A DNA stretch of 59,711 nt from Vicinamibacteria bacterium (GCA_041476545.1 JBGOTP010000001.1:1-59711), one strand, 5' to 3'; positions 56,793-59,711 are shown, numbered from the stretch's first letter. The notes: a model not told the origin generated them from the letters alone. A program made the numbers and translations.

Positions 56793-56869
56793 GGGCGCTT
56801 AGCTCAGCTGGTTAGAGCGCGTGCTTCACACGCACGAGGTCGGGGGTTCGAGCCCCTCAGCGCCCACCA
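56793..56869 (+). tRNA. tRNA-Val (anticodon CAC), CCA-encoded
   Basis: Manual cloverleaf: GGGCGCT/AGCGCCC acceptor, GCTC/GAGC D arm, CGTGC-TTCACAC-GCACG, GGGGG-TTCGAGC-CCCTC, A, CCA. Confidence 0.9.
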
Positions 56870-56997
56870 TTCAACCGCAGTAAAGACAATCACTTAGCGA
56901 AGTTGGCAAAAACGAAGAGGGCGCGAGCCTGCCCTTTGGGGACGGTTTGGGGACGGTTTGGTGGCACTTTGAAGGCGGTCTCCTGTCGTCAAAATAG

Positions 56998-57013
56998 CTT
57001 TTGATATCAAAAG
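56998..57013. repeat. Perfect 16-bp palindrome CTTTTGATATCAAAAG
   Basis: Read directly. Preceded by the tandem 11-mer TTTGGGGACGG x2.x at 56935-56967. Confidence 0.8.
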
Positions 57014-57046
57014 TCGGTAGGCTGTTTCCGGGCTGAAGGCGGGTCG

Positions 57047-57727
57047 TCAGTCCCTGTGGAGGACGGCTGGATGTCGACGCGAGATCGCAAAAATGGCCGG
57101 CCAACCAAGAACGCCGATCGGAGAGCACCGGCAGGAATATTGGCGCTGCAGCGCGAGCTGAGGGTCCGACTCGTCAGCTCGGGGGGACGCCCATCGGATC
57201 CCAGCGCCGACAATTCGCCGGCTCGTGACCCTCAAGAAGGACGTCTGGAAGGACCTGCAACGGCACGCTGCCCTGCTCTCAAGGCTCGGCCAGGGCGTCA
57301 GTCCGGGACAGTTCGCGGCGATGCGAGTCAGATCGTAATACGACGCGATCGGCATCGAACCGACGGCTTCAAGGCAGCGAGCAAGAAGTCGGTCACACAG
57401 CTGCCGCCAGTCTTCGCCGGTCGGAATCGCATGAACCGGCACTTCCATCTCGACCCATGAATCCGGAAAGGTACTCTCGATCGCCTCCGCTATCGGGAGC
57501 ACCACTTTCCGAAATCGGTCGTCGTCTTCTCGACGTCGCTGATACGTGTCGAGTGACGTGTGCTCGACGGCATGACGGGTGTTCTTGCGGTCGACGATGG
57601 CGTCACAGCCACCCTGCCCCGGCTTCTCTCGGTCGGGGTGCTCGACGACCGTGATCGGAGACCTTTCAATTCTTCCGATCACGGTGCACCAGCCGTCGAT
57701 GGCGCGATCTTCGCGTTCCGTGTTCAT
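57047..57727 (-). CDS. Hypothetical protein, N-terminal PD-(D/E)xK-like (restriction-endonuclease-fold) motif; C-terminal third doubtful
   Basis: 226-aa track ORF. The first ~135 aa look protein-like (..VEHPD..x10..CDAIVDR..TRHAVEHTSL..). The last ~90 aa are Arg/Cys/Ser/Trp-rich and overlap a better-looking plus-strand reading. Confidence 0.45.
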   Translation of the reverse strand: MNTEREDRAIDGWCTVIGRIERSPITVVEHPDREKPGQGGCDAIVDRKNTRHAVEHTSLDTYQRRREDDDRFRKVVLPIAEAIESTFPDSWVEMEVPVHAIPTGEDWRQLCDRLLARCLEAVGSMPIASYYDLTRIAANCPGLTPWPSLESRAACRCRSFQTSFLRVTSRRIVGAGIRWASPRADESDPQLALQRQYSCRCSPIGVLGWPAIFAISRRHPAVLHRD

Positions 57728-57860
57728 GGTTAAGGCATGGATAAAGTTGATGCTATCGCCATTTCAACTGCATACGCCAACTCCCTGCTCGACCCGCTGT
57801 TGGATCGCCCGGCCTGAGTCAGCCTCGCGGGTCGCTCAGCAACTGAAGCAGCATGCCGCG

Positions 57861-58955
57861 CTACTTCGACGACAGCGCGGTCATGATGTCAACGGCCGTC
57901 GGTCGCTTGCTCTGCTCAAATTCAAGCATCTGCCGGATGAGGAAGTTCGTTTGTGAATCTGTGGACGCGTCCGCAAACGCCTTAGCGCCGACGACGAACG
58001 GGTCTGGGGTGTCACCAGTCAGCATTTCGTACCAACTGATACCCAACGCGTAGATGTCGCTCGCTGCGGTAGCTTCGTGCGGCGCGACTCTCTGTTCATG
58101 GGCCATGTAGTACCAAGAGCCCAGTTGGATAGATGCCTTCGTGATTGTTGCGGCGGAAGTGAACGCTGGATTCATATCCGACCACCGAACGATGCCGAGA
58201 TCGCCGAGCACGTACCGATCGCCGAAGCGAAGAATGTTGTGCGGCTTTACGTCGCGATGAACGCACCCCATGTCGTGCAGATACTTAAGTCCGGTGGCGC
58301 TCGCGGAGATCACGAGACGAGCCTGATCGGCGGTCAGGGGCGCAGCCTCGATTTGCGCACCAAGCGACTGATCGGCCAACTCCATGACCAAGAATGGGTG
58401 CCCATCGTAGGTGCCTCGATCAATGTGCGTAACGATATTCGGGTGTGAAAGCGCTGCCCCGTTCTCCGCCTCTCGTGAGAATCGACGTTTCACATCGTTG
58501 AGCATCGAGGGGTCAAGCAAGTCCGCCCGAGGATCCACGACCTTGATGGCGAACTCCTTTCGGCCGACGACGCGCTGACACCGCCACACTTGCGCCACGG
58601 CGCCACGTCCCAGCTCAACGACGAGTTCGTAGTCGAAGTCTCTCGCCTTGAATCGAAGGCCAGGCGACAGGGCCAATGTTGCTGGCCTGATCTGTGTGAA
58701 TGCGTTGTCGATGTCTTCCTTTGTGATCAACGCACCATCTCGCCGAACGCGAAACTTCGCATGCTCGATAGGACGCAAGCTAGTCGTCGGCGTCAAGAAA
58801 GGTGCGAACGCGTTCTTGCTGTTGTGTGCTTCGAGAGTGGCTGGACTCCACTCAGTCGCGGCCATCAGCTCGACAGCCGTGACGATGTCTCCTTCTTTCT
58901 TGCTCTTCAGGTGTTGCTGGAACCGCTCAAGCCACGGTCGGAGTTTCTTGGCCAT
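57861..58955 (-). CDS. Ser/Thr protein kinase with ~110-aa N-terminal domain of unknown function
   Basis: LGRGAVAQVW, FAIKVV, HRDVKPHNIL, LGDLGIVR, YMAHEQ. The likely start is MAKKLRPW (ATG 58955), 5 nt after the upstream stop. The track ORF starts at 58982. Confidence 0.8.
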   Translation of the reverse strand: MAKKLRPWLERFQQHLKSKKEGDIVTAVELMAATEWSPATLEAHNSKNAFAPFLTPTTSLRPIEHAKFRVRRDGALITKEDIDNAFTQIRPATLALSPGLRFKARDFDYELVVELGRGAVAQVWRCQRVVGRKEFAIKVVDPRADLLDPSMLNDVKRRFSREAENGAALSHPNIVTHIDRGTYDGHPFLVMELADQSLGAQIEAAPLTADQARLVISASATGLKYLHDMGCVHRDVKPHNILRFGDRYVLGDLGIVRWSDMNPAFTSAATITKASIQLGSWYYMAHEQRVAPHEATAASDIYALGISWYEMLTGDTPDPFVVGAKAFADASTDSQTNFLIRQMLEFEQSKRPTAVDIMTALSSK

Positions 58956-58960
58956 TGGCG

Positions 58961-59401
58961 TTAGCGCAGCTGGCGGTGCCACGATCTCAAGACCACCGCT
59001 CTGCGCTCCGCCGTCGCCGGTGAGAGGCCGCTGAGACGCGAGATTCTGTCGCCGATCTTCTTCACATCCACTTCGGGCACGGACAGCAGGTTTGGAGCAA
59101 TGAGCTGGACCGAGGCGCAGTCGCTGACGGCGCTCGCCAGCTGCTTCTTTTCTTCAGGCGTGCCGACTTCCGTTGCGAGCAAACGCTTGGCACGAGGTGT
59201 CAGCTCGGGCTCGCCTTCAGGCTTCAGAAAGCCGAGAACCCGAGCCGCTTGCAGGCGGTAGCGAACGTGACGTTCCGAGAACTTCGTTTTCTCGGCCAAA
59301 TCCTTGACGGCAGTGGTCGGCGACACCGGTATCGCCTCCAGCAAGCGCCGGACAAGTGCGAGGGAATCCGCCTGCGGAACGTCTGAGGTCTTGAGCTTCA
59401 C
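58961..59401 (-). CDS. Hypothetical protein, winged-helix-like N-terminus
   Basis: 146-aa ORF with protein-like composition (..TAVKDLAEKTKFSERHVRYRLQAARVLGFL..). First gene of a three-gene minus-strand cluster. Confidence 0.6.
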   Translation of the reverse strand: MKLKTSDVPQADSLALVRRLLEAIPVSPTTAVKDLAEKTKFSERHVRYRLQAARVLGFLKPEGEPELTPRAKRLLATEVGTPEEKKQLASAVSDCASVQLIAPNLLSVPEVDVKKIGDRISRLSGLSPATAERRAVVLRSWHRQLR

Positions 59402-59512
59402 GGTCGGGCTTGCCCCGCGGGCATCTTACCGAAAGCGTCGGAGCGATGGTAGCGGGCAGCTGTGGAGGCATCGTGTGACCCGGGCTGTCACACCTTCGGT
59501 TACACTCAGGGC

Positions 59513-59711
59513 GTGCCAACCGCGGTCAAGATCGCATCGGAAACTGTTGCCCCTCCGCTCAAGTGGGCTGGCGGTAAACGCTGGCAAATACCGCACTTAC
59601 TGCCGCTGTGGCAATCGCACACTGGGCGCCGTCTCGTCGAGCCTTTTTGCGGCGGCTTGGCTGTCTCTCTGGGACTTCGTCCTCGGGCCGCGCTCCTCAA
59701 TGACGCCAATC
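59513..59711 (+). CDS. Dam-family (D12 class) N6-adenine DNA methyltransferase, 3' part beyond window
   Basis: Not in the ORF track because it runs off the right edge. My translation from GTG 59513 is VPTAVKIASETVAPPLKWAGGKRWQIPHLLPLWQSHTGRRLVEPFCGGLAVSLGLRPRAALLNDAN. It carries the KWAGGK, EPF.GG and LND.N motifs. The frame is open from 59453, with an alternative GTG at 59462. Confidence 0.8.
   Translation, partial: MPTAVKIASETVAPPLKWAGGKRWQIPHLLPLWQSHTGRRLVEPFCGGLAVSLGLRPRAALLNDAN

What the first reader, a model, noticed from the sequence alone, without database searches (positions are those of the whole stretch)
56870..59711. tRNA-Val-adjacent island: wHTH protein - Ser/Thr kinase - PD-(D/E)xK-like protein, divergent from a Dam-family methylase (candidate undescribed defence-like module)
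Immediately 3' of tRNA-Val the sequence becomes visibly AT-richer and gene content changes from housekeeping to accessory. A minus-strand cluster encodes three proteins. (a) A 146-aa protein with a winged-helix-like N-terminus. (b) 5 nt after its stop, a 364-aa Hanks-type kinase (GRGAVAQVW, AIKVV, HRDVKPHN, DLG) with a ~110-aa N-terminal domain I do not recognise. (c) 133 nt later, a protein whose N-terminal 135 aa carry a restriction-endonuclease-like pattern (..PD..x10..D-AIV-D..x8..VEHT..). A Dam/D12-class N6-adenine methyltransferase (KWAGGK, EPF.GG, LND.N) is transcribed divergently from a 110-bp shared control region and runs off the window. Kinase-based phage defence is known (Stk2 abortive infection; PglW in the Pgl/BREX type 2 system, which also couples a kinase to an adenine methylase). 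This compact wHTH-kinase-nuclease-like arrangement does not match any described system that I know of. No integrase or att repeat is visible, so the island probably continues beyond 59711.
Basis: partly seen in the sequence, partly recalled or inferred. Interest (0 to 1): 0.7.

Follow-up and report, generated by a model that had tools for sequence, protein, structure and literature searches.

The report
Kinase-linked methylase and nuclease gene module

Summary
The proposed trio, however, is not the conserved unit.

- **ORF3 (57047-57727):** it is the truncated N-terminal 135 aa of an unrelated ~280-aa family. It occurs next to no other kinase of this family and lies outside the module's conserved 3' end.
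- **What recurs:** the same wHTH-fused kinase sits within 3.5 kb of a DNA N6-adenine methylase in 31 of 47 lineages. Among lineages with at least 2 kb of flank on both sides the figure is 12 of 15. The methylase is Dam-type, beta-class, or both.
- **Usual partners:** a ~135-aa PD-(D/E)xK nuclease (Pfam PDDEXK_11) translationally coupled to the methylase, and the 146-aa wHTH protein. Gene order and orientation vary widely.
- **Control:** none of 80 generic-kinase loci (1.22 Mb) has any of these partners.
- **The 146-aa protein** is a free-standing copy of DUF7226, the C-terminal domain of a REBASE-type type II restriction enzyme.
- **The methylase-nuclease pair** also occurs alone, on an ICE-like element and in T4-like cyanophages.

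PADLOC v2 and NCBIfam have no specific model for the nuclease or the wHTH protein, and I found no paper describing the module.

Most likely this is a compact restriction-modification-like system placed under Ser/Thr-kinase/wHTH control. The logic resembles PglW/PglX, MADS and Ambrosia, but it is not a member of any of them. Function is inferred, not shown.

The parts
56793..56869 (+). tRNA-Val (anticodon CAC). It marks the boundary between housekeeping DNA and accessory DNA.
   Evidence: ARAGORN. G+C drops after it.
56870..57322 (.). Unassigned spacer, not part of the module. It holds a tandem GGGGACGGTTT x2 at about 56938-56959 and the unrelated read-through tail of the ORF3 frame. It also holds a + strand frame-shifted small reading frame at about 57072-57330.
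   Evidence: Sequence. No similarity to any fetched locus. No Pfam hit for the reconstructed small peptide.
57323..57727 (-). Truncated remnant (aa 1-135) of an unrelated ~280-aa protein family with no known domain. It is not part of the conserved module.
   Evidence: The 226-aa ORF is listed. Homologues P0242-P0251 are 279-285 aa and match only the N-terminal 59-71% of it. By tblastn the clear similarity stops after '...ASYYDLTR', residue ~135. The family is absent from all 68 other loci searched. Its genomic context elsewhere is unrelated.
57777..57829 (-). Conserved 3' element that ends the wHTH-kinase operon. It contains an imperfect hairpin, CCCGC...GCGGG.
   Evidence: It is 85% identical over 53 nt to the sequence just after the 421-aa third gene of L001-L004. 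The fold is not significant (z=-1.7).
57861..58955 (-). Hanks-type Ser/Thr kinase of 364 aa. The N-terminal winged-helix domain is aa 1-108 (58632-58955). The kinase domain is aa 109-358 (57882-58631).
   Evidence: Pkinase matches at E=1.8e-32. K138, D235, N240 and D252 are invariant in 34 homologues. The N-domain AlphaFold model has pLDDT 84.6 with H-b-H-H-b-b topology, and its best fold matches are MarR, ArsR, MukBEF and ORC chains. More than 100 full-length homologues exist, down to 42% identity.
58961..59401 (-). A 146-aa winged-helix protein that is a free-standing DUF7226 domain. Its gene ends 5 nt before the kinase start, so the two form one operon.
   Evidence: Pfam hits are weak: HTH_AsnC, HTH_24 and a near full-length DUF7226 match at E=0.018. 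An HMM built from its orthologues hits the DUF7226 C-terminus of a 431-aa type II REase at E=1e-11 to 8e-13. The alignment is shown. It was found directly upstream of the kinase in 15 of 47 lineages.
59402..59512 (.). Divergent control region of 111 bp. It contains the palindrome GTGTGAC-N7-GTCACAC at 59473-59493, which is a candidate operator. It also contains a conserved TAAGAT box on the kinase-operon side.
   Evidence: Alignment with four relatives shows the arms conserved and the spacer variable. The repeat is perfect in the window only. No sigma-70 consensus promoter was found.
59513..59711 (+). N-terminal 66 aa of a Dam-family (D12 class) N6-adenine DNA methyltransferase, cut by the contig end. 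In relatives it is followed, with a 4-bp overlap, by a ~139-aa PDDEXK_11 nuclease.
   Evidence: MethyltransfD12 matches at E=7e-8 and TIGR00571 at E=7e-9. It is 83% identical to the L002 orthologue, which scores 173 bits against TIGR00571's 114.85 cut-off. Synteny with L002, L005, L091 and L093 is shown.

Best explanation
The window's last 2 kb are one half of a mobile, conserved module.

**Parts of the module**
1. An N6-adenine DNA methylase. It is Dam-type here; in other lineages it is a beta-class N6_N4 methylase, or both are present.
2. A minimal ~135-aa PD-(D/E)xK nuclease (PDDEXK_11), translationally coupled to the methylase. Here it would lie just beyond the contig end.
3. A 146-aa DUF7226 winged-helix protein.
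4. A Ser/Thr kinase with its own N-terminal winged helix, encoded directly after the DUF7226 gene.

**Proposed mechanism (inferred)**
- The methylase and nuclease act as a compact restriction-modification-like pair. The methylase marks resident DNA and the nuclease attacks DNA in the wrong methylation state.
- The kinase and wHTH pair is a phospho-signalling layer on top of this pair.
- The DNA-binding kinase responds to infection or to foreign DNA and phosphorylates the DUF7226 protein and/or the nuclease.
- That phosphorylation switches either expression or nuclease targeting. Expression control would act through the palindrome in the shared promoter. Nuclease targeting is suggested because DUF7226 is the C-terminal domain of a true type II enzyme.

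**Shown versus inferred**
- Shown: gene content, homologies, folds and the conserved linkage.
- Inferred: methylation-sensitive cleavage, the phosphorylation targets and the anti-phage role.

The third ORF of the finding is an unrelated truncated gene.
For: **Linkage**
- tblastn and HMM maps of 68 loci show the kinase next to a methylase in 31 of 47 lineages. The figure is 12 of 15 among lineages with at least 2 kb on both sides.
- PDDEXK_11 is present in 10 of those 15, and an REase-DUF7226 fusion in one more.
- At least seven different gene orders and orientations occur.
- Control: 0 of 80 generic-kinase loci (1.22 Mb) have any partner.

**Methylase class is swapped but a methylase is kept**
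- 17 lineages have Dam only, 9 have N6_N4 only and 5 have both.

**Nuclease**
- The PDDEXK_11 Pfam hit is above threshold.
- The AlphaFold model has pLDDT 86.5.
- Foldseek matches a restriction-endonuclease-like fold: AF1548, HindIII, the BspD6I small subunit, Hjc and Can2.
- The gene overlaps the methylase gene by 4 bp.
- The same pair stands alone on an ICE-like element and in T4-like cyanophages.

**DUF7226 as a restriction-enzyme domain**
- In L109 and L116 the kinase lies about 2.2 kb downstream of a Dam gene followed by a 431-aa DUF6996-DUF6997-DUF7226 protein.
- That protein is a full-length match to the PADLOC type II REase model (E=5e-50) and carries a D...EAK motif.
- The wHTH HMM hits its C-terminus.

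**Kinase**
- The catalytic residues are invariant and it is an RD kinase. The activation-loop motif FTSAGTIT is conserved.
- The N-domain has a winged-helix topology.
- In other proteins that N-domain is fused to DUF3644 plus an EC042_2821 REase-like domain, to AAA_14 plus DUF4143, or to AAA_21/AAA_15. One such protein sits beside a gene with the Shedu SduA_C domain.

**Operator-like palindrome** in the divergent promoter is conserved in the close clade.

**Precedents for phospho-signalling joined to methylase and nuclease**
- Ambrosia (10.1101/2025.09.30.679545).
- PglW (PMC12839542).
- MADS (10.1101/2023.03.30.534895).
Against: - No experiment has been done, and the nuclease gene itself is not in the window.
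- In the L002-type clade of PDDEXK_11 the canonical acidic residue of (D/E)xK is Ser (S-L-K), so activity may be altered.
- PDDEXK_11 is unusually conserved for a restriction enzyme, at 72-100% identity over the best 120 clusters.
- PDDEXK_11 matches no PADLOC REase model.
- GATC is not avoided in the genome window (O/E 0.95).
- The wHTH gene was not detected in about two thirds of lineages (many on short contigs) and PDDEXK_11 was not detected in some. The 'four-gene' unit is therefore a core of kinase plus methylase with optional parts.
- Three lineages with long flanks have no partner at all (L088, L092 and L139).
- The palindrome is conserved only among close relatives.
- Whether the kinase regulates, senses or kills is not distinguishable from sequence.
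Confidence: 0.55

Rival explanations
1. There are two independent systems that merely share islands. One is a small type II R-M-like pair (methylase plus PDDEXK_11). The other is a separate single-gene abortive-infection kinase of the PD-T4-6 or Stk2 kind with its own wHTH partner. No functional coupling exists between them.
For: - The Dam-PDDEXK_11 pair exists without the kinase.
- The kinase domain scores well against PD-T4-6 models (E=1.4e-44).
- Three kinase lineages with long flanks lack a methylase.
- Neighbours are often other defence-type genes: an HEC-01-like ATPase in L090, and Fic in L005.
Against: - Adjacency is far tighter and more consistent than island co-residence would give. 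Gaps are 0-150 nt in many loci. PDDEXK_11 lies directly upstream of the kinase in L102, L108, L110 and L113. An N6_N4 methylase abuts the kinase in L126 and L127.
- Linkage is kept through many rearrangements and through replacement of the methylase class.
- 0 of 80 control kinases show it.
- The PD-T4-6 hits cover only the generic kinase domain.
Confidence: 0.2
2. This is not host defence. It could be a mobile-element establishment or counter-defence cassette: a self-protecting methylase, a nuclease against competitors, and a kinase that rewires host proteins. Alternatively it could be an epigenetic regulatory circuit in which kinase and wHTH control an orphan-like Dam methylase.
For: - The methylase's best PADLOC match is the 'orphan methyltransferase' model.
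- The pair occurs on an ICE-like element with a serine recombinase, ParB and TraG, and in lytic cyanophages.
- One methylase-kinase pair lies in a predicted viral contig near a tail-tube gene.
- GATC is not avoided.
- A phage kinase that disarms host defences appears in the literature list (PMC13645617).
Against: - Most occurrences are chromosomal contigs of soil bacteria. No family member was found in 72,556 plasmids and only one in IMG/VR.
- The consistent presence of a nuclease fits restriction better than pure regulation.
- The N-domain's other fusion partners are typical defence effectors.
Confidence: 0.15
3. One reading: the functional unit is the trio of wHTH protein, kinase and the downstream 'PD-(D/E)xK-like' ORF3.
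For: - The three genes are on the same strand and close together in this window.
- ORF3 has a PD...D...EHT pattern.
Against: - ORF3 is found beside the kinase only here.
- It is truncated at residue ~135 of ~280.
- It lies beyond the operon's conserved 3' element.
- Its family lives in unrelated contexts.
- It has no Pfam, PADLOC, NCBIfam, PHROG or PDB sequence match.
- The position after the kinase holds unrelated genes in other lineages: a 421-aa protein, or a 419-aa protein with a weak NUDIX hit.
Confidence: 0.03

Closest known systems
BREX type 2 / Pgl (PglW kinase with PglX methylase)
   Same: It uses the same parts list. A restriction-endonuclease-fold domain, an active Ser/Thr kinase and winged-helix DNA-binding modules work together with an N6-adenine methylase. 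PglW is described as NERD-REase plus pseudo-kinase plus kinase plus three wHTH domains (PMC12839542).
   Different: - Here the parts are separate small proteins rather than one 1400-1600-aa PglW.
- The methylase is a small Dam-type or beta-class type II enzyme, not PglX/BrxX.
- No PglZ or PglY/BrxC was annotated in the loci with Pfam tables.
- The kinase scores 40.8 bits against the PglW model, whose cut-off is 990.
Ambrosia (AbrR, AbrA, AbrB, AbrC, AbrD)
   Same: It is an experimentally validated defence system in which a phospho-signalling pair controls an N6-adenine methylase plus a nuclease. The pair is a kinase and a wHTH-containing regulator. It is the closest match in logic.
   Different: - Ambrosia uses a histidine kinase/HATPase and a REC-wHTH response regulator, an HNH type IV-like nuclease and an XRE repressor.
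- It is found in Gammaproteobacteria.
- Here there is a Hanks-type Ser/Thr kinase, a DUF7226 wHTH protein and a PD-(D/E)xK nuclease, in soil Acidobacteriota, Myxococcota and others.
- No component is homologous beyond the methylase superfamily.
MADS (methylation-associated defence system)
   Same: It is a methylation-based defence operon that includes a protein kinase (mad6) and an N6 methylase (mad2). The window kinase hits the mad6 models (PADLOC E=1.7e-42; NCBIfam 101 bits), and an N6_N4 partner methylase hits mad2.
   Different: - MADS has 8 genes with a type I-like specificity subunit and a bipartite target.
- The kinase score of 101 bits is far below the MAD6 cut-off of 460 and is of the same order as the generic kinase hits.
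- No other mad component is present.
PD-T4-6 and Stk2 (single-gene Ser/Thr-kinase defences)
   Same: They are Hanks-type kinases acting in phage defence. The best PADLOC hit of the kinase is PD-T4-6 (E=1.4e-44).
   Different: - The hit covers only the kinase domain (residues 108-318).
- The PD-T4-6 and Stk2 matches do not extend into the family-specific N-terminal winged helix.
- Those systems are filed as stand-alone kinases, without a methylase or nuclease partner.
- The Stk2 match is weak (51.8 bits).
Type II R-M systems with a controller (C) protein
   Same: A small methylase and nuclease cassette is accompanied by a small HTH protein, and a palindromic operator lies in the promoter region.
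   Different: - C proteins are XRE-type HTH proteins. Here the small protein is DUF7226, which is homologous to a restriction-enzyme C-terminal domain.
- It is co-transcribed with a kinase, not with the nuclease.
- PDDEXK_11 is not a recognised REase family in PADLOC.

Membership tests
Dam family / D12-class N6-adenine DNA methyltransferase (TIGR00571, PF02086) | The profile match is above the curated cut-off, with the N-terminal SAM-binding motifs. | tested here: met
   - The window fragment scores PF02086 32.9 bits against a cut-off of 22.
- Its TIGR00571 score is only 35.8 bits because just 66 aa are present.
- The complete orthologue in L002 (83% identical over the fragment) scores 173 bits against 114.85.
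Dam family / D12-class N6-adenine DNA methyltransferase (TIGR00571, PF02086) | GATC specificity. | not testable with these tools
   This needs a methylome or an enzyme assay. GATC O/E of 0.95 in the window is uninformative.
Hanks-type (eukaryote-like) Ser/Thr protein kinase (PF00069) | The Pkinase profile is above threshold, and the catalytic Lys, HRD Asp, Asn and DxG Asp are intact. | tested here: met
   The score is 113.2 bits against a cut-off of 31.7. K138, D235, N240 and D252 are invariant in 34 family members.
DUF7226 (PF23871) | Profile match over the whole domain. | tested here: inconclusive
   - The direct Pfam score is 15.3 bits, below the cut-off of 27, but it covers positions 14-133 of 142.
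- An HMM of the window protein's orthologues matches the bona fide DUF7226 domain of the L109 and L116 proteins (Pfam E=1.4e-24 for L109) at E=1e-11 to 8e-13.
- Conserved motifs align.
- Homology is therefore supported even though Pfam's own threshold is not reached.
Classical type II restriction-modification system | A methylase with an adjacent endonuclease gene. | tested here: inconclusive
   - The endonuclease gene is not in the window because the contig ends.
- In relatives a PDDEXK_11 gene overlaps the methylase stop by 4 bp.
- It has a PD-(D/E)xK fold.
- It matches no PADLOC REase model.
Classical type II restriction-modification system | The nuclease cuts the unmethylated cognate site and the methylase protects that site. 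| not testable with these tools
   This needs biochemistry or genetics.
BREX type 2 / Pgl | PglW, PglX, PglY and PglZ are present, with PglZ as the defining component. | tested here: not met
   - The kinase scores 40.8 bits against the PglW cut-off of 990.
- The methylase is Dam-type.
- No PglZ or BrxC-like gene appears in the Pfam gene tables of L001-L005 and L086-L090.
MADS | A MAD6 kinase equivalog and the eight-gene operon with a specificity subunit. | tested here: not met
   The NCBIfam MAD6 score is 101 bits against a cut-off of 460. The operon composition differs.
PD-T4-6 | A match to the PD-T4-6 kinase models as a stand-alone defence gene. | tested here: inconclusive
   - The HMM hit is strong (E=1.4e-44) but limited to the generic kinase domain.
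- PADLOC models carry no curated cut-off.
- The extra N-terminal wHTH and the fixed methylase partner argue against simple membership.
PD-(D/E)xK nuclease (claimed for ORF3) | A restriction-endonuclease-like fold with D...(D/E)xK catalytic residues. | not tested
   - There is no sequence-profile or PDB sequence match.
- The conserved pattern is PD...CDA...EHT, with no Lys in the third position.
- The window copy is truncated in any case.

The most novel reading that the evidence does not exclude
This is a previously undescribed family of kinase-gated restriction-modification systems. A Hanks-type kinase carries its own winged-helix DNA reader. It licenses, or redirects, a minimal PD-(D/E)xK nuclease by phosphorylating a detachable DUF7226 specificity or regulatory subunit. 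The partner methylase can be either Dam-type or beta-class. The family is spread by horizontal transfer through soil Acidobacteriota, Myxococcota and other phyla. The underlying methylase-nuclease pair also occurs in T4-like cyanophages.
Probability: 0.3. Interest if true: 0.8.

Novelty: new variant of a known kind. Interest (0 to 1): 0.66.

Why it matters
[quoted passage not shown] How the kinase talks to the DNA enzymes is unresolved in all of them.

This module would be the smallest such system so far. It has three or four small, separately encoded proteins, each tractable for biochemistry and structure work. It also carries a natural 'Rosetta stone', because DUF7226 is fused to a true restriction enzyme in some loci. 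Together these make the question directly testable.

The module also assigns a likely role to two Pfam families of unknown function (PDDEXK_11 and DUF7226). In addition it defines a new winged-helix sensor domain shared by several defence-type effectors.

Tried and rejected
- **Exact-sequence look-ups of the three window proteins** found no record. Contexts therefore came from homologues.
- **The single genome-contig scan was wasted**. I reused them as a negative control.
- **Third-gene comparisons.** The 421-aa gene of the closest relatives, the 419-aa Sorangium gene and ORF3 were compared in two pairs, and neither pair is related. The idea of a conserved third effector was dropped.
- **Kinase N-domain versus DUF7226.** Profile comparison found no relation.
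- **PDDEXK_11 versus the nuclease half of the 431-aa REase.** No detectable relation.
- **PDB sequence searches** with the profiles of PDDEXK_11, the N-domain, DUF7226 and ORF3 gave nothing significant. The only hit was a marginal Ku70 SAP match for the N-domain (E=0.004).
- **GATC or other palindrome avoidance** as a hint of specificity: none found.
- **att repeats and an integrase in the window tail:** none.
- **Plasmid collection:** no family member.
- **Literature searches** for the Pfam names and for kinase, methylase and nuclease combinations found no description of this module.
- **The palindrome as a universal operator** was rejected, because it is conserved only in the close clade.
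- **The ORF3 fold** was not modelled because the structure jobs were exhausted.

Full report
**1. Observation**

- tRNA-Val(CAC) lies at 56793-56869.
- G+C falls from 0.65-0.70 to 0.58-0.62 after it.
- On the minus strand there are three ORFs:
  - a 146-aa ORF at 58961-59401;
  - a 364-aa kinase at 57861-58955, starting 5 nt after the first gene's stop;
  - a 226-aa ORF at 57047-57727, 133 nt further on.
- The kinase has a Pkinase domain at residues 109-358 (E=1.8e-32) and an unannotated 108-aa N-terminus.
- A Dam/D12-class methylase reading frame starts at GTG 59513, 111 nt from the 146-aa gene, and runs off the window.
- No att repeat or integrase is present.
- The kinase's record lists 59711 bases as its longest contig, so the window appears to be the whole contig and cannot be extended.

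**2. The third ORF is not part of anything conserved**

- Its homologues are 279-285 aa (two shorter fragments aside) and match only its N-terminal 59-71%.
- tblastn of a full-length homologue against the window shows clear similarity to residue ~135 ('...ASYYDLTR'), after which it decays. No other frame carries the missing 145 residues.
- The gene is therefore a truncated remnant. The rest of the 226-aa frame is read-through.
- Among 68 other loci searched, nearly all carrying the kinase family, no second copy of ORF3 occurs.
- Elsewhere its family sits beside an IS3 transposase and a radical-SAM/TIR/nSTAND cluster, with no kinase or Dam gene.
- A 53-nt stretch between the kinase and ORF3 (57777-57829) is 85% identical to the sequence just after the last gene of the operon in the closest relatives.
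- The operon's conserved 3' end therefore lies before ORF3.
- ORF3 and its family have no Pfam, PADLOC, NCBIfam, PHROG or PDB sequence match. Its fold was not modelled.

**3. What is conserved instead**

The kinase belongs to a well-defined family.

- There are more than 100 full-length ~360-aa homologues down to 42% identity.
- The N-terminal domain is conserved along with the kinase domain, and all catalytic residues are invariant.

Contexts of homologues were collected in three ways.

- Exact-protein look-ups gave loci L001-L005 and L086-L090.
- A metagenome scan with family-specific motifs gave 58 more loci.
- I mapped neighbours with tblastn and with HMMs built from the loci themselves.

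After collapsing kinases at 95% identity there are 47 lineages.

| Partner within 3.5 kb | All 47 lineages | 15 lineages with ≥2 kb on both sides |
|---|---|---|
| DNA methylase | 31 (17 Dam only, 9 PF01555 N6_N4 only, 5 both) | 12 |
| ~135-aa PDDEXK_11 (PF20472) | 17 | 10, plus 1 with an REase-DUF7226 fusion |
| 146-aa wHTH protein | 15 | 8 |

Most lineages without a partner sit on short contigs.

The arrangements differ widely:

- nuclease and methylase divergent from wHTH and kinase, which is the window's type;
- all four genes co-directional, in either order;
- nuclease directly before the kinase;
- methylase abutting the kinase;
- a convergent arrangement.

The 80 generic-kinase loci from a failed genome scan served as a control. 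They contain none of these partners in 1.22 Mb. The linkage is therefore real and is preserved through rearrangement and through replacement of the methylase class.

**4. The parts**

*Methylase.*
- The complete orthologue passes the Dam-family NCBIfam cut-off (173 bits against 114.85).
- Its best PADLOC match is an 'orphan methyltransferase' model.

*Nuclease.*
- PDDEXK_11 overlaps the methylase stop by 4 bp.
- Its AlphaFold model (pLDDT 86.5) has a restriction-endonuclease-like fold. The best matches are AF1548, the R2 element's endonuclease domain, HindIII, Can2, the BspD6I small subunit and Hjc, at TM 0.4-0.55. This shows the fold but no close relative.
- Two subtypes exist, with E-C-K or S-L-K at the (D/E)xK position. 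Both keep a GG[ST]AE[QE]K motif.
- The family is highly conserved and has no PADLOC REase model.

*The methylase-nuclease pair on its own.*
- It occurs without any kinase in a chromosomal locus (L149) and on an ICE-like element (L150-L152) with a serine recombinase, ParB, AIPR and TraG.
- It also occurs as a Dam-type methylase plus PDDEXK_11 (phrog_6124) in T4-like cyanophages S-RIM50 and ACG-2014b.

*The 146-aa protein.*
- It has only weak direct Pfam hits, including a near full-length DUF7226 match at E=0.018.
- In L109 and L116 the kinase lies about 2.2 kb downstream of a Dam gene followed by a 431-aa DUF6996-DUF6997-DUF7226 protein.
- That protein is a full-length match to PADLOC type II REase model PDLC03513 (E=5e-50) and has a D...EAK motif.
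- The HMM of the 146-aa family hits its C-terminus at E=1e-11 to 8e-13, and shared motifs (ERxxxY, GLxxxTxxRRA..L.SW) align.
- The small protein is thus a detached copy of a restriction-enzyme domain.

*Kinase N-domain.*
- It folds as a winged helix (pLDDT 84.6, H-b-H-H-b-b). The best structural matches are MarR, ArsR, MukBEF and ORC chains, though only at E≥0.02.
- It is rare, with 138 hits among 1.84 billion representative proteins.
- In other proteins it is fused to DUF3644 plus an EC042_2821 REase-like domain, to AAA_14 plus DUF4143, or to AAA_21/AAA_15 ATPases.
- One such protein sits next to a gene with the Shedu SduA_C domain.
- It is not detectably related to DUF7226.

**5. Regulatory and boundary features**

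- The 111-bp divergent region contains the perfect palindrome GTGTGAC-N7-GTCACAC (59473-59493), just upstream of the Dam start.
- Its arms are conserved and its spacer varies in four relatives whose kinases are 67-88% identical. A TAAGAT box on the kinase-operon side is also conserved.
- More distant relatives have other sequences there.
- Close relatives carry the module in different places, for example next to recA in L001 and L002 or near a Fic gene in L005. This fits a mobile cassette.
- The slot after the kinase is empty here. It holds a 421-aa protein of unknown function in the 88%-identical clade, a 419-aa protein with a weak NUDIX hit in Sorangium, and a large Cap4-like/AAA/SEC-C protein in L109.
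- In L090 an HEC-01-like ATPase pair lies next to the module.

**6. Interpretation**

The best-supported reading is a compact restriction-modification-like pair (methylase plus minimal PD-(D/E)xK nuclease) that has recruited a phospho-signalling layer. That layer is a DNA-binding Hanks-type kinase and a DUF7226 wHTH protein encoded in one operon.

- The kinase is predicted to be active. It is an RD kinase with a conserved Ser/Thr-rich activation loop.
- Two non-exclusive modes of action fit the data.
  - *Transcriptional control.* The wHTH protein would act on the shared promoter through the palindrome, in the manner of a C protein. This resembles the experimentally studied Ambrosia system, where a kinase and a wHTH regulator switch on a methylase and a nuclease during infection.
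  - *Post-translational control.* The wHTH protein would act as a detachable DNA-recognition subunit of the nuclease. This is suggested by the REase-DUF7226 fusion.
- Everything about activity, targets and phenotype is inference.

I give this reading 0.55. The rivals are:

- two unrelated neighbours (0.2);
- a mobile-element establishment or counter-defence cassette, or a purely epigenetic circuit (0.15);

**7. Comparison with known systems**

- **PglW/PglX (BREX type 2)** combines the same kinds of domain but fused and with PglZ/PglY. None of these is matched here.
- **MADS** has a kinase and a methylase but eight genes and type I-like specificity. The MAD6 score is far below its cut-off.
- **PD-T4-6 and Stk2** match only through the generic kinase domain.
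- **Ambrosia** shares the logic but none of the families.
- PADLOC v2 has no model for PDDEXK_11, DUF7226 or the third genes.
- NCBIfam 20.0 offers no specific family.
- No paper in the library mentions PDDEXK_11 or DUF7226, and other keyword searches found no description.
- I cannot exclude that it is listed under another name in a resource not available here.

**8. Verdict**

  - The kinase, wHTH and Dam association is a genuine, widespread and apparently undescribed module.
  - Its nuclease is PDDEXK_11, which lies off the contig, not ORF3.
- It is best classed as a new variant of the known theme 'methylation-based defence coupled to protein phosphorylation'.
- Interest is 0.66. The system is small, recurrent and directly testable, but so far supported only by comparative genomics.

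Noticed in passing
P0311-P0384 group, P0333, P0365; L159 2149-3459: The kinase's N-terminal winged-helix domain is a rare, swappable module. In other proteins it is fused to DUF3644 plus an EC042_2821 restriction-endonuclease-like domain (~430 aa), to AAA_14 plus DUF4143, or to AAA_21/AAA_15 ATPases. About 85-aa proteins consisting of little more than the domain also appear in the hit list. One DUF3644 fusion lies next to a gene with the Shedu SduA_C domain.
   Followed up: partly
L158 2096-3417 (Cyanophage S-RIM50 NC_031242.1 37941-39262); 39 phage records (all Synechococcus phages or cyanophages): In S-RIM50 a Dam-type methylase is immediately followed by a PDDEXK_11 homologue (phrog_6124, annotated hypothetical). 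The homologue is present in all 39 records. The methylase-nuclease pair is thus conserved from soil bacteria to lytic cyanophages.
   Followed up: partly
L109 4552-12848 and L116: A larger cluster runs as follows: Dam, a 431-aa type II REase (DUF6996-DUF6997-DUF7226), a 331-aa unknown protein, an N6_N4 methylase on the opposite strand, the kinase, then a 955-aa protein. The 955-aa protein has a weak Cap4-nuclease-like N-terminus, an AAA_22/AAA_16 domain and a C-terminal SEC-C motif.
   Followed up: partly
L150-L152 (Acidobacteria bacterium SCN 69-37, MEDJ01000006.1): A Dam-PDDEXK_11 pair without the kinase sits inside an ICE-like region. The region has a serine recombinase, two ParB/RepB genes, an AIPR abortive-infection gene, and TraG-like and T2SSE-type ATPases.
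   Followed up: no
L157 2889-4887 (IMGVR_UViG_2917587430_000001): An N6_N4 methylase directly followed by a family kinase lies in a 48% G+C predicted viral contig, near a gene with a weak phage tail-tube match. It is the only family member found in IMG/VR.
   Followed up: partly
window 57777-57829: This 53-nt element is 85% identical to the sequence that follows the 421-aa third gene in L001-L004. It contains an imperfect hairpin. The 421-aa gene therefore behaves as an insertion or deletion between the kinase and a shared operon end.
   Followed up: yes
window 59473-59493: The perfect palindrome GTGTGAC-N7-GTCACAC lies about 20 nt upstream of the Dam start codon. Its arms are conserved and its spacer is variable in four related loci.
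   Followed up: partly
window 56938-56959 and about 57072-57330 (+): A tandem GGGGACGGTTT x2 lies just after the tRNA. A + strand reading frame needs one frameshift to give an ~89-aa peptide (…GGRPSDPSAPTIRRLVTLKKDVWKDLQRHAALLSRLGQGVSPGQFAAM…). It has no Pfam match and no similarity to any fetched locus.
   Followed up: partly
L005 8565-9414: In this 77%-identical relative the Dam gene is broken into three frames and is a likely pseudogene. PDDEXK_11, the wHTH gene and the kinase remain intact. An intact nuclease without its methylase would be unexpected for a classical R-M pair.
   Followed up: no
L090 11087-12735; L115 2571-3698 / L117 1531-2658: In L090 an HEC-01A-like AAA_15/AAA_21 ATPase plus a 178-aa partner lie convergent to the kinase. 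In L115 and L117 a second, different 375-aa kinase gene lies convergent to the family kinase.
   Followed up: no
L097/L098 3407-4548 (L097 coordinates), L119, L135, L092/L094/L095: Several family kinases are frame-shifted, interrupted or N-terminally truncated. This suggests frequent decay of the module.
   Followed up: no
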